A stretch of 64,000 nucleotides of DNA from Escherichia coli (GTDB lineage: Bacteria; Pseudomonadota; Gammaproteobacteria; Enterobacterales; Enterobacteriaceae): assembly GCF_022846255.1 (NCBI RefSeq), contig NZ_AP025682.1; one strand, written 5' to 3'. The position numbers are program-made. This document shows, in pieces, positions 18,001-21,000 of this stretch; position 1 is the stretch's first letter; each line of letters starts with the position of its first letter.

Positions 18001-21000
18001 TTGGTATATATATTAATGGCTTGAAAAAATTTATTTGACGTCAAATAAACAGGTACGGCTAGTATTGAGTATCCATACCCGATATTAAGAAAACCATCTT
18101 CAACCCTTATAGCAAAAGCTCTGCTAGAAAAAAGGTAAAGAATTACGTCAAATATACTTATTTTTCAGATACAAACTTTACAAAGCCTCTTTTTTTTCAA
18201 AGCCACTAAGTAAACTCAAAAGATCTCTAAATTCCTTTTTCTTAATACATTATCAAAAGTTAAAAAATCCATGAAGCAGCATTCCTGTTAAGCGACATGC
18301 TTTCTTGAATTTTCGATAATTAATTGAATCCATTCATCGATTTCGCTTTCTACAAAAGCGGTAGCACGAATACCGATCTTTACTGGCTGTGGGAACCGAT
18401 TTTGGCTGATAAGACGATAGATCCACGCTTTACCAAATCCAGTTTTCTTCATGACTTCTGGTAAACGGATGAGACGAGCTTGATTTTCCATATGTATGTC
18501 CTCTGTTGTGTCTACAGGGCTACAGTACAAATGAATTTCGAATGGATGAAGCGAGATTACGAACATCAGAGCCATCCCTGGCTCGAAACTATGAGTCTCT
18601 GGAGATTCATATCACTCAGAGTCTGAGAGTTTCATAACATCCGAAACCCTCATTTCTTTAACATGCTGATTTTTATTGATAAAAAAGTTAAATTGCCTTA
18701 AAAAATCAATTTCTACAGTTTTCATTGCGAAAGGCCGATCAGCATCTCTTATATGATATCCTTGGCGAATCGCCTTATCATCATCTTCATCCGTGTATAG
18801 CAATCGAGATAATCTGTCGTCTGACAGAAGTAATTTTTTTCTTTCTGACCATGCGAGCAAATCAAGCATAGGGATAATTCGATAGCTAATTAATTTTTTT
18901 ATTGCCCCATAACCAAATCTGACTGCATCAAGTGGTGCAGGTTTAACGCCTTTTACTTTTCGCCATTGTGGTAATGATACTCGCAGGGCCTCAGCTATCT
19001 CATCATCGCTTCCACCCGCAAGATCGATTTCTAACATAATCGTAGTAGGAAACTGTTCAGGAATTTTTTCGGAAATATATTCATTTTCAATAGTGGAATC
19101 AATTTTATATTGTTCTGTATTTGCTCTAATGAATAAAGCCTTTCTCATACAATCAAAACTGATATTTGCTATTCGATCAACAGTAGTAATAAAAAAGTAT
19201 GGGGGTTGATATAATTTATTTTCGGCATCCATATAATTTAAGTGCTTCTCTTTGATAAGAAAAGGATCACCATCCAATATCTGCATATAATTTTTCAATA
19301 CTGTTTTCTGCATTCCTTCTTCTATTACTGGTTTGAAAAAATAGGTTCTCGCCCATATTTCATGGTAAAGCATATTAATAGAAATGTTTTCAAACCCTCG
19401 ATATTTGTCCAAATCAAACCACGTTTTCACTGCTTTGGTGTCTTCTGATGTCCAACTATTCATTTTTACCCAAGATTTCATTAATGCCACTCCGTTGTAA
19501 AAAGTTTTACTTCGTAATAGCACATAAATCGCAAATAAAAAAATGGCGTCTCAATTGGTTATTGAATACGCCATTTTACTCATAAAAATCAGTTAGTTAT
19601 TAAAATCAAAAGGTGCAATTCTTCTCTTAGTTGTTTCATCAAGATAATCAGCCCACCACTGCAACATCAACCTACGCTCATCCAAATGCTCAGCTTTATG
19701 AATGTATGCGGCACGAACGGAGTTCCGCTCCTGATGGCTCATCTGCCTCTCAACAGCATCTCTCGACCACTTTCCTGACTCGATCAAAGCACTACAAGCC
19801 ATCGCTCTAAAACCATGCCCACATACCTCAACGGTTGTGTCATAACCCATCGCCCTGAGCGCCTTGTTCACTGTGTTTTCGCTCATAGGTTTTCTGAAAT
19901 CATGATCGCCAATGAATACCAGGTCGCATTCGCCGCTGATTTCTCTGATGGCTTTTAGAAGTTCTAAAGCCTGACGACTTAACGGCACGAGGTGTGGGGT
20001 CTTCATTTTTGAACCTCGATGGGAATGTTTGACTCCTGGCAATAGCTCGCGTTCTCCAGGGATAGTCCACATCGCATTTTCAAAGTCGATCTCCGACCAT
20101 CTTGCGAATCGGAGTTCAATGGAACGGATAAAAATGAGCAATGTCAGCTTCACAGCTAATTTAGTAAGTTTCCTACCTTTAAAGCTTTCAATGCGCTCTA
20201 AAAGCTCTGAGAACCTATCAAATGGTAAGGCTGGTCTGTGGGTTCGTTTCGCAACTGTAATTGCCCCAGACATATCTTGTGCTGGATTGTAGTCAATTAA
20301 GCCATTCTGGACGGCATATCGCATTACTGCCGTAGTCCTTTGCTGTAGTCGGGAAGCAACTTCCAGTCGTCCAGAAGCTTCAACGGCCTTGATAGGGGCG
20401 ATAAGATCTCTGGTATTAAGCTCGGATATTTTTCTTTTACCAATAGCAGTAAAGAGACCATCCTCCATGCTTTTTAGAACTCTTTCGCTGTGAGAATCTG
20501 ACCATTTCCTTTTACAGGCAGTATGCCAGTCCCTTGCAACAGCTTCGAATGTCAGGGCTTCGCTTTGCTCAATCTTATCTGCTTTTTTCTTTTCAGAAGG
20601 ATCGATACCATCAGATACCAACTTTTTGGCTTCATCTCGCTTCCTGCGGGCTTCACCAAGAGAGACCATTGGATAAACACCCAATGCTAAAACTTTCTGT
20701 TTGCCCCCGAAACGGTATTGGAGTCGCCAGTACTTTGAACCATTGGGGTTGATCAGCAGGTGCATACCCTGCCCATCTGTGAGTTTGAAAGGTTTATCGG
20801 AGGGCTTTGTTGTTCGAACTTTGATATCAGTGAGTGCCATCAGTTGATACCTCCATTGTTGGTACCAAAATCAATCGAACCGAGAATACCATCAGTTATA
20901 CCATCATCGGTTGGTATATGTTCAAGGAATTGAGTAGACGTGAACAGACTAAGCCAAGTCAGAAACTCGCTTAACTTACTGTTTTTTTGGACTAAAGTAG

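What the first reader, a model, noticed from the sequence alone, without database searches (positions are those of the whole stretch)
18612..19523. Unassigned 303-aa protein between the integrase and the AlpA-like regulator
This AT-rich gene sits in a position where islands often carry accessory regulators, abortive-infection or anti-defence genes. I could not recognise any motif in it.
Basis: inference. Interest (0 to 1): 0.35.

Follow-up and report, generated by a model that had tools for sequence, protein, structure and literature searches.

The report
Conserved unknown-function island gene beside AlpA
The gene is real and belongs to the catalogued but uncharacterised DUF6387 family; it is a conserved backbone partner of the AlpA excision factor in tRNA-inserted genomic islands, not variable cargo, and what it does there is still untested.

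Summary
The ORF exists as described (18612..19523, minus strand, 34% GC). The likely start is the ATG at 19481, giving 289 aa. It is not truly unassigned: it is a full-length member of Pfam DUF6387 (263 bits against a cut-off of 28.9), and RefSeq already names it so. No function is known for the family.

DUF6387 is followed directly by an AlpA-type gene in nearly all of about 55 loci, including relatives only 20-25% identical. The pair always sits at an island extremity, either after a P4-type integrase (as here) or next to the distal att repeat. Published data place it in 52 of 55 EARL islands. Four of four sampled related leuX islands carry another DUF6387 allele in the same slot. dN/dS is about 0.1. 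The family is essentially absent from phages and plasmids.

My best reading, which is inference, is a non-enzymatic regulator or accessory factor of AlpA-dependent excision. Defence cargo, replication and transfer roles are less likely.

The parts
18612..19481 (-). DUF6387 family protein gene (289 aa).
   Evidence: ORF; PF19924 full length, E=3e-78, 263 bits against a cut-off of 28.9; RefSeq annotation WP_065888769.1; GGAG 8 nt before the ATG at 19481; dN/dS about 0.1.
19533..19577 (-). Intrinsic-terminator-like stem-loop (10-bp perfect arms at 19540-19549 and 19568-19577) followed by a run of T, closing the integrase gene.
   Evidence: Inverted repeat I7. RNA fold dG -18.5 kcal/mol, z = -4.8, 0 of 200 shuffles as stable. 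Stem-loops with different sequences plus T-runs occupy the same place in other lineages.
19482..19532 (-). Leader and putative own promoter of DUF6387, with a dyad GTAAAAC/TTTTTAC at 19497-19510.
   Evidence: Sequence. The dyad occurs only once in the island. No consensus sigma-70 promoter was found by the scan. In another lineage a ~65-nt upstream block travels with the gene whether it follows int or an att site. A promoter here is inferred, not shown.
18492..18611 (-). DUF6387-alpA spacer holding a conserved promoter-like layout for alpA: a -10-like TACTGT at 18522-18527, a TCGCT box at about 18550-18558, and a GAGG ribosome-binding site before the ATG at 18491.
   Evidence: Alignment of 13 divergent lineages with invariant T-A-N3-T and a conserved box (A3). 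The hairpin just after the DUF6387 stop is not significant in the window (z = -1.0).
18288..18491 (-). AlpA-family (recombination directionality factor type) gene, the invariant downstream partner of DUF6387.
   Evidence: PF05930, E=2.7e-20; adjacency in nearly all loci surveyed.
19593..20840 (-). P4-type tyrosine integrase (arm-binding, central and catalytic domains).
   Evidence: Pfam PF13356, PF22022, PF00589. GC is 45.4% against 34.3% for DUF6387, a compositional break at the junction.
21030..21114 (-). tRNA-Leu(CAA), the integration target. An 18-bp att core repeat lies at 21036-21053.
   Evidence: ARAGORN; Rfam; direct repeat D3.
2946..2963 (.). Distal 18-bp direct repeat CGAAGGCCGGACTCGAAC, marking the far end of the 18,090-bp island.
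   Evidence: the repeat finder D3, 100% identical to 21036-21053; GC shift at about 3000.

Best explanation
SHOWN: the ORF encodes a member of the DUF6387 (PF19924) family. This family is a backbone gene of the integrase/AlpA recombination module of tRNA-integrating, mostly mobilizable genomic islands. The window holds an 18-kb island at tRNA-Leu, with the order int, terminator, DUF6387, alpA promoter, alpA. INFERRED: DUF6387 is a non-enzymatic, all-alpha protein made from its own promoter while the island is integrated. It most likely acts as an island-specific regulator or accessory factor of AlpA-dependent excision. It could set when the AlpA recombination directionality factor is made or allowed to act, by binding DNA near the att/promoter regions or by binding Int or AlpA. 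Which partner it binds, and whether it promotes or restrains excision, is unknown.
For: 1. DUF6387 is followed directly by alpA in nearly all of about 55 loci, whatever else surrounds it. This holds in relatives 20-25% identical, including a satellite-like element with a primase, and in islands captured on plasmids.
2. The cassette always sits at an element extremity. It lies either right after a P4-type int (12 loci plus 4 of 4 E. coli leuX islands) or 200-270 bp from a partial-tRNA att repeat at the end opposite int (ICEKp258.2 ORF27/28).
3. It is present in 52 of 55 EARL islands, behind only int, TraD and the RDF, and it is kept in minimal islands.
4. In ROD21 the neighbouring AlpA homologue SEN1998 is an RDF that binds both att regions, more strongly the one on the DUF6387 side.
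5. DUF6387 divergence tracks int (r=0.76) and AlpA (r=0.50) better than the recombinase trio (r=0.24).
6. Selection is purifying: dN/dS 0.04-0.17 in 9 of 11 pairs.
7. The family is confined to chromosomal islands: 1 spurious phage record and 4 of 72,556 plasmids.
8. No catalytic motif was found, and the conserved residues are mostly aromatic or helix-capping. All 71 diverse members are single-domain with no fusions.
9. Several genomes hold two diverged copies in separate islands, as expected for an element-specific factor.
Against: There is no experimental evidence for any family member. No HTH or other DNA-binding domain is detectable by Pfam or by fold comparison. The overall pI is 6.2. Many P4-type int/AlpA elements work without this protein, for example CP4-57 and P4. 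Co-divergence with neighbours can come from linkage alone. The conserved alpA-promoter box is shared by lineages whose DUF6387 proteins are only 50% identical, which fits AlpA or a host factor as its binder at least as well. The DUF6387 promoter itself is inferred, because the scan found no consensus site.
Confidence: 0.42

Rival explanations
1. Accessory defence, abortive-infection or anti-defence cargo occupying a hotspot next to the integrase.
For: The gene is AT-rich and looks like a self-contained unit, with a terminator before it and a separate promoter after it, much like a moron. In satellite phage P4 the slot directly downstream of int holds the accessory gop-beta-cII locus, and cII is of similar size at 264 aa. 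In E. coli IAI1 a cytosine methyltransferase pair is inserted right after int, so that junction does accept cargo.
Against: The same family fills the position in elements 20-25% identical and in 4 of 4 related leuX islands, which is not the turnover expected at a hotspot. In IAI1 the cargo lies between int and DUF6387, and DUF6387-AlpA stays intact. There is no PADLOC match. The family is essentially absent from phages and plasmids. dN/dS is about 0.1 with no arms-race signature. No enzymatic or effector domain was found. P4 cII and CP4-57 YfjH are not homologous. The island's recognisable restriction-modification-like cargo is at the other end.
Confidence: 0.12
2. A transfer or establishment factor of mobilizable islands, for example a relaxosome or oriT accessory protein, or an early-entry protein made in the recipient.
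For: DUF6387 co-occurs with TraD and MOBQ-type relaxases in EARL islands, and minimal islands keep exactly int, TraD, the RDF and this gene. The window island also has a MobA/VirD2-type relaxase, and relaxase homologues lie a few kb downstream in many loci.
Against: The gene is never adjacent to the relaxase or TraD. It is present in a satellite-like element with Bro-N and a primase where no relaxase was seen in the 6 kb examined. It is nearly absent from plasmids, where transfer accessory proteins are common. It has no acidic DNA-mimic composition (pI 6.2).
Confidence: 0.1
3. Replication initiator or maintenance protein for the excised circular form.
Against: Islands with DUF6387 carry their own RepL-type replication gene or a primase. 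The apparent 3.7-kb 'plasmid' carrying the gene is a linear contig fragment. The gene occurs in only 4 of 72,556 plasmids. No winged-helix or Rep fold match was found. No iteron-like repeats lie near the gene.
Confidence: 0.07
4. A component of the neighbouring three-recombinase (GInt-like) machinery and not of the P4-type int/AlpA module.
For: About 25 loci show DUF6387-AlpA followed directly by the trio and two small ORFs. In complete E. coli genomes the trio count (347) equals the O157-type (313) plus window-type (34) DUF6387 counts.
Against: DUF6387-AlpA occurs without any trio in EARL islands and in distant elements. Identity patterns are uncoupled: L002 has DUF6387 at 50% and the trio at 95-97%, while L012 has DUF6387 at 98% and the trio at 54-67%. 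The DUF6387-recombinase A correlation is only 0.24. Described GInts need only ginABCD.
Confidence: 0.07

Closest known systems
Pfam DUF6387 (PF19924), as in ICEKp258.2 ORF28 (KPNJ2_RS09320) and, by position, ROD21 SEN1999 of the EARL island family
   Same: Full-length family membership. The gene lies immediately upstream of an AlpA-type RDF on the same strand, at an extremity of a tRNA-integrated island with a P4-type arm-binding integrase.
   Different: In EARL islands the cassette is at the end opposite int and the target is tRNA-Asn. Here it directly follows int and the target is tRNA-Leu. The window protein is only about 45-55% identical to most EARL-type members. No member has a known function. 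SEN1999 = DUF6387 is inferred from gene order and Table S1, and I did not check it by sequence.
Master regulators encoded between int and xis in other integrative elements (SaPI Stl; ICEBs1 ImmR/ImmA) - functional analogy only, from general knowledge
   Same: Position inside the int/excision module, an element-specific divergent sequence, a similar size to Stl, and expression expected in the integrated state.
   Different: Those regulators have recognisable HTH domains and are transcribed divergently from xis. DUF6387 has no detectable HTH and is co-oriented with int and alpA. No homology was tested or found.
Satellite phage P4 cII (sce7726 family) and CP4-57 YfjH - positional analogues
   Same: Genes of 264-318 aa and unknown function, located directly next to a P4-type integrase and near an AlpA/Vis-type gene.
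   Different: They are not homologous: hhalign probability is 0.1% for cII and 0.4% for YfjH, and the family HMM finds nothing in P4 or CP4-57. YfjH is on the opposite strand.

Membership tests
Pfam DUF6387 (PF19924) | Whole-protein HMM score above the curated gathering threshold, with full-length coverage | tested here: met
   263.3 bits against a cut-off of 28.9, profile positions 2-258 of 258. RefSeq names the 99.9% identical gene 'DUF6387 family protein'.
Pfam DUF6387 (PF19924) | Family-wide conserved residues (W21, F22, Y27, R45, L170, R174, D207, W211 in 289-aa numbering) | tested here: met
   All are present in the window protein, and each is conserved in at least 90% of 71 diverse members.
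Pfam DUF6387 (PF19924) | Typical context: immediately upstream of an AlpA-family gene at an island extremity (a regularity I derived here, not a curated criterion) | tested here: met
   alpA starts 120 bp downstream on the same strand. The same layout is seen across loci.
EARL (ROD21-like) genomic islands - for the island carrying the gene | Integration at a tRNA-Asn gene | tested here: not met
   The island is at tRNA-Leu(CAA), with 18-bp repeats at 2946-2963 and 21036-21053. EARL islands use Asn-tRNA genes.
EARL (ROD21-like) genomic islands - for the island carrying the gene | Conserved backbone: arm-type integrase, AlpA-type RDF, TraD, MOBQ relaxase and the ORF28 homologue | tested here: inconclusive
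   The integrase, AlpA, DUF6387 and a MobA/VirD2-type relaxase are present. No TraD (PF06412) or H-NS was detected among the ORFs scanned. The MOB class was not typed.
GInt (ginABCD) elements - for the neighbouring recombinase trio | Three consecutive tyrosine-recombinase-like genes followed by a small domain-less fourth gene | tested here: met
   The 401-aa and 441-aa proteins hit PF00589. The 543-aa and 132-aa proteins have no Pfam domain, as described for GinC and GinD. Homology to Pseudomonas gin genes was not tested.
GInt (ginABCD) elements - for the neighbouring recombinase trio | The gin operon delimits the 5' end of the element, which is flanked by 10-11 nt imperfect repeats | tested here: inconclusive
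   The trio lies inside the leuX island, preceded by int-DUF6387-alpA. The identity break between alpA and the trio is compatible with a nested element, but its ends were not mapped.
Known anti-phage defence systems (PADLOC-DB v2) | Match to a defence-protein model | tested here: not met
   0 families at E up to 1.
Helix-turn-helix or winged-helix transcription regulators | Detectable HTH/wHTH domain by profile or fold | tested here: not met
P4 cII (sce7726) / CP4-57 YfjH | Sequence-profile homology | tested here: not met
   hhalign probabilities of 0.14% and 0.41%. The HMM scan of P4 and CP4-57 ORFs found nothing.

The most novel reading that the evidence does not exclude
DUF6387 is a so far unrecognised third protein component of the integrase/RDF excision switch of a large class of enterobacterial and other gammaproteobacterial genomic islands. 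It would be an element-specific regulator or sensor with a fold unrelated to any solved structure, gating AlpA production or activity and so deciding when these islands excise and spread. That class includes ROD21 of Salmonella Enteritidis and ICEKp258.2 of Klebsiella ST258.
Probability: 0.35. Interest if true: 0.6.

Novelty: new member of a known kind. Interest (0 to 1): 0.38.

Why it matters
How EARL-type and related islands decide to excise is unresolved. These include ROD21 in Salmonella Enteritidis, ICEKp258.2 in epidemic Klebsiella ST258, and the leuX and SpLE1-region islands of E. coli. Published work found that deleting or overexpressing the RDF alone had only slight effects, and that int and RDF expression correlated negatively with excision. 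A gene present in 94.5% of these islands, always paired with the RDF and never studied, is an obvious missing candidate. Working excision assays already exist to test it. Its fold, with no solved relative, also makes it a reasonable structural target. For this window alone, the result is ordinary: an annotated domain-of-unknown-function gene in a typical island backbone.

Tried and rejected
1. **Sequence homology to anything named.** NCBIfam and PADLOC gave no hits, and the PHROG match is to a family of unknown function. phmmer and a 71-sequence profile against all PDB sequences gave nothing. Pfam on 71 diverse members returned only PF19924. Two large protein searches returned only 'DUF6387' or 'hypothetical' names and no fusions. 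One 841-aa hit, P0234, is a junk repeat translation.
3. **Positional analogues.** CP4-57 YfjH and P4 cII are not homologous.
4. **The small 'plasmid' carrying the gene as evidence for replication.** It is a linear contig fragment.
5. **A terminator after DUF6387 in the window.** The hairpin is not significant (z = -1.0), so co-transcription with alpA cannot be excluded here.
6. **A shared operator.** The promoter-region dyad does not recur in the island. The region upstream of DUF6387 is not conserved across lineages.
7. **Consensus sigma-70 promoter for DUF6387.** None was found by the scan.
8. **Known RNA in the region.** Only the tRNA was found.
9. **Diversifying selection.** Not seen, apart from two Pectobacterium pairs at dN/dS 0.31-0.42.
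Full report
**1. The observation**

An ORF runs from 19523 to 18612 on the minus strand (303 aa from a GTG). It lies between a P4-type tyrosine integrase at 19593-20840 (Arm-DNA-bind_3, Phage_int_M and Phage_integrase domains) and an AlpA-family gene at 18288-18491 (PF05930, E=2.7e-20). 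All three read away from tRNA-Leu(CAA) at 21030-21114. The ORF is 34.3% GC, the island 34.7% and the flanking core 50.4%.

The GTG start is probably wrong. The ATG at 19481 has a GGAG 8 nt upstream and is the RefSeq start, giving 289 aa. Its first residues, MK[SP]WVKM, are conserved in relatives about 62% identical. Most other family members begin at the equivalent of 19463.

The gene is real. It gives a full-length family match. It has 112 close and 455 cluster-level homologues. dN/dS is 0.04-0.17 in 9 of 11 allele pairs, with two Pectobacterium pairs at 0.31-0.42.

**2. What it is**

The protein is a full-length member of Pfam DUF6387 (PF19924): 263 bits against a cut-off of 28.9, covering profile positions 2-258 of 258. 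RefSeq annotates the 99.9% identical gene as 'DUF6387 family protein' in 34 complete E. coli genomes. So it is catalogued, but nothing is known about its function.
- NCBIfam and PADLOC give no hit, and the matching PHROG (23422) has unknown function.
- Every source name across two large searches is 'DUF6387' or 'hypothetical'.
- All 71 diverse members scanned hit only PF19924, and there are no domain fusions.
- Only two papers in the library mention the name, both merely in gene tables, and none mentions PF19924.

**3. Structure**

With a 34-sequence alignment the model was mediocre (pLDDT 77.6). With 71 diverse sequences it became confident (pLDDT 90.6, pTM 0.85). It is a compact protein of about 14 helices and one short hairpin.
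- BFVD gave nothing.
- A family profile against all PDB sequences gave nothing.
- AFDB50 was unavailable.

Residues conserved across the family are mostly aromatic or hydrophobic, or helix-capping (W21, F22, Y27, R45, D159, E161, L170, R174, K196, D207, W211). The pI is 6.2. No catalytic motif and no HTH are detectable. On this evidence the fold has no experimentally characterised relative.

**4. Context in the window**

An 18-bp direct repeat, CGAAGGCCGGACTCGAAC, occurs at 2946-2963 and inside the tRNA at 21036-21053. It delimits an 18,090-bp island. Reading from the tRNA on the minus strand, the island holds:
- int, DUF6387 and alpA;
- two clear tyrosine recombinases (401 and 441 aa) and a 543-aa protein with no detectable domain;
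- small ORFs of 132 and 140 aa.

On the other strand it holds a MobA/VirD2-type relaxase, a DUF4755 protein, and an Eco57I-like methyltransferase with a double-GHKL ATPase.

After the int stop there is a strong terminator-like stem-loop plus a run of T (dG -18.5 kcal/mol, z = -4.8). Equivalent stem-loops with unrelated sequences sit at the same place in other lineages. The hairpin after the DUF6387 stop is not significant in the window (z = -1.0).

The DUF6387-alpA spacer carries a promoter-like layout conserved in 13 divergent lineages. It has an invariant T-A-N3-T, a TCGCT/TCACT box about 22 nt upstream, and a GAGG ribosome-binding site. The region upstream of DUF6387 is not conserved across lineages, but one ~65-nt block travels with the gene whether it follows int or an att site. 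The most economical reading is three units: int, DUF6387 and alpA. Read-through from DUF6387 into alpA cannot be excluded.

**5. Context elsewhere**

I examined about 55 loci from many Enterobacterales and from metagenomes.
- **AlpA adjacency.** DUF6387 is followed by alpA, usually 80-170 bp downstream, in nearly every locus with enough sequence. The few exceptions carry insertions, including an IS605-type gene.
- **Distant relatives.** The order int, DUF6387, alpA persists in relatives only 20-25% identical, including a satellite-like element with Bro-N and a primase.
- **Two layouts.** In layout A (tRNA-int-DUF6387-alpA) the gene follows int, as in the window. This is seen with tRNA-Leu or tRNA-Thr integrases that are only 39% identical to each other. 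In layout B, DUF6387 is the terminal gene, 200-270 bp from a reverse-complemented partial tRNA end, which is the distal att repeat, and int lies at the other end. Layout B is the arrangement of ICEKp258.2 (ORF27 AlpA/RDF, ORF28 DUF6387). Divergent int/DUF6387 pairs also occur.
- **EARL islands.** In the published presence/absence table the ORF28 homologue is in 52 of 55 EARL islands (94.5%). Only int (100%), TraD (98%) and the RDF (98%) are more frequent. Minimal islands keep just these four genes.
- **ROD21.** The AlpA homologue SEN1998 behaves as an RDF and binds both att regions, more strongly the one on the side where the terminal gene SEN1999 lies. That SEN1999 is the DUF6387 homologue is my inference from gene order and Table S1.

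**6. Testing the 'variable accessory slot' idea**

In E. coli genomes with a related leuX integrase (80-87% nt identity) the nucleotide match stops at the end of int. In 4 of 4 sampled genomes the next genes are another DUF6387 allele and an AlpA-type regulator. In IAI1 a cytosine methyltransferase pair is inserted between int and DUF6387 and leaves DUF6387-alpA intact. So the int/DUF6387 junction can take cargo, but DUF6387 itself is backbone.

Consistent with this, there is a compositional break at that junction: int is 45.4% GC and DUF6387 is 34.3%. Identities across it are mosaic, for example int at 86-91% with DUF6387 at 50-52% in L018, L019 and L030.

The family is found in one 'phage' record, which is really a Salmonella contig, and in 4 of 72,556 plasmids. 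One of those four is a contig fragment, one is a 4.8-Mb record (H19) that I did not examine, and two are islands on large plasmids. P4 cII and CP4-57 YfjH occupy similar positions but are not homologous.

**7. Which module does it belong to?**

DUF6387 divergence correlates with the adjacent int (Spearman 0.76, n=10) and with AlpA (0.50, n=26) more than with the first trio recombinase (0.24, n=14). Linkage alone contributes to such correlations.

The trio resembles the GInt ginABCD operon as described in the literature. It follows alpA in about 25 loci. In complete E. coli genomes its count (347) equals the sum of the O157-type (313) and window-type (34) DUF6387 alleles. Even so, DUF6387-AlpA is common without any trio, and identities across the alpA/trio boundary are uncoupled. 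I therefore place DUF6387 with int/AlpA. The trio may be a nested element that prefers the site downstream of alpA, which is a side hypothesis I did not test.

**8. Mechanism**

Shown: family membership; backbone status; invariant pairing with the RDF gene at an island extremity; purifying selection; restriction to chromosomal islands; no detectable enzymatic or known DNA-binding domain; a fold with no solved relative.

Inferred: DUF6387 is a non-enzymatic, element-specific factor of the excision switch, either a regulator of AlpA production or activity or an accessory partner of Int or AlpA. I give this about 0.4.

Points against it:
- Many P4-type int/AlpA systems lack the protein.
- No HTH is detectable and the pI is near neutral.
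- The conserved alpA-promoter box is shared by lineages with very different DUF6387 alleles.
- There are no experiments on any family member.

Rivals:
- **Defence or anti-defence cargo (0.12).** Best supported by the P4 analogy and the moron-like layout.
- **Transfer or establishment factor (0.10).**
- **Replication of the excised circle (0.07).** Weakened by co-resident RepL or primase genes.
- **Part of the trio machinery (0.07).**

The remaining probability is for something not yet considered.

**9. Novelty and verdict**

The gene is an already catalogued domain-of-unknown-function member in a documented position, so for this window the finding is ordinary. What is worth carrying forward is that an unstudied gene with no structural relatives is one of the four most conserved genes of a medically relevant island family and always accompanies the excision factor. 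That makes the poorly understood excision control of these islands directly testable with existing assays.

Noticed in passing
window 13358-17905 (-): Two tyrosine recombinases (401 and 441 aa), a 543-aa domain-less third protein and a 132-aa ORF resemble the ginABCD operon of GInt elements. The block follows alpA in about 25 loci and is in 347 of 5,426 complete E. coli genomes, always chromosomal and single-copy. Identity breaks between alpA and the trio suggest a nested element that targets the site downstream of alpA.
   Followed up: partly
window 1949-2818 (-) and 2946-2963: A truncated second P4-type integrase (arm-binding and central domains only, no catalytic domain) lies just outside the island's distal 18-bp repeat. 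This indicates a tandem or decayed earlier island at leuX. A WYL-domain protein lies at 547-1440.
   Followed up: partly
window 3686-9506 (+): Island cargo: an Eco57I-like type II N6-adenine methyltransferase (561 aa), then a 769-aa protein with two GHKL ATPase domains and a weak restriction-enzyme model hit, then two ORFs with no matches (373 and 247 aa). This is a candidate restriction-modification-like defence cluster of unusual composition.
   Followed up: partly
window 18492-18611 (-); alignment A3: The promoter-like region upstream of alpA is conserved across 13 divergent island lineages: an invariant T-A-N3-T, a TCGCT/TCACT box about 22 nt upstream (too far for a standard -35), and a conserved CCATCGAAAC-like leader. 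The binder of the box is unknown.
   Followed up: partly
window 19481-19593 junction; L067 (E. coli IAI1) 5751-8132: There is a compositional break (45.4% to 34.3% GC) and mosaic identity exactly at the int/DUF6387 junction. In IAI1 a cytosine methyltransferase plus a hypothetical gene is inserted there, so this junction, not the DUF6387 gene, behaves as the cargo hotspot.
   Followed up: partly
L021/L035, L023/L042, L025/L034, L032/L036: Several genomes (Trabulsiella, Pectobacterium carotovorum, Izhakiella, Superficieibacter) carry two diverged DUF6387 copies in separate islands. In Trabulsiella the two are only about 30 kb apart on one contig.
   Followed up: no
window 37001-38000 and 40001-42000: Further AT-rich patches (GC 0.34-0.39 against about 0.51 around them) suggest other horizontally acquired segments in the window.
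   Followed up: no
window 10185-12473 (+): A MobA/VirD2-type relaxase (395 aa) is followed by a DUF4755 protein. Relaxase homologues recur a few kb downstream of DUF6387-AlpA in many loci, so these islands are probably mobilizable. oriT and the MOB class were not determined.
   Followed up: no
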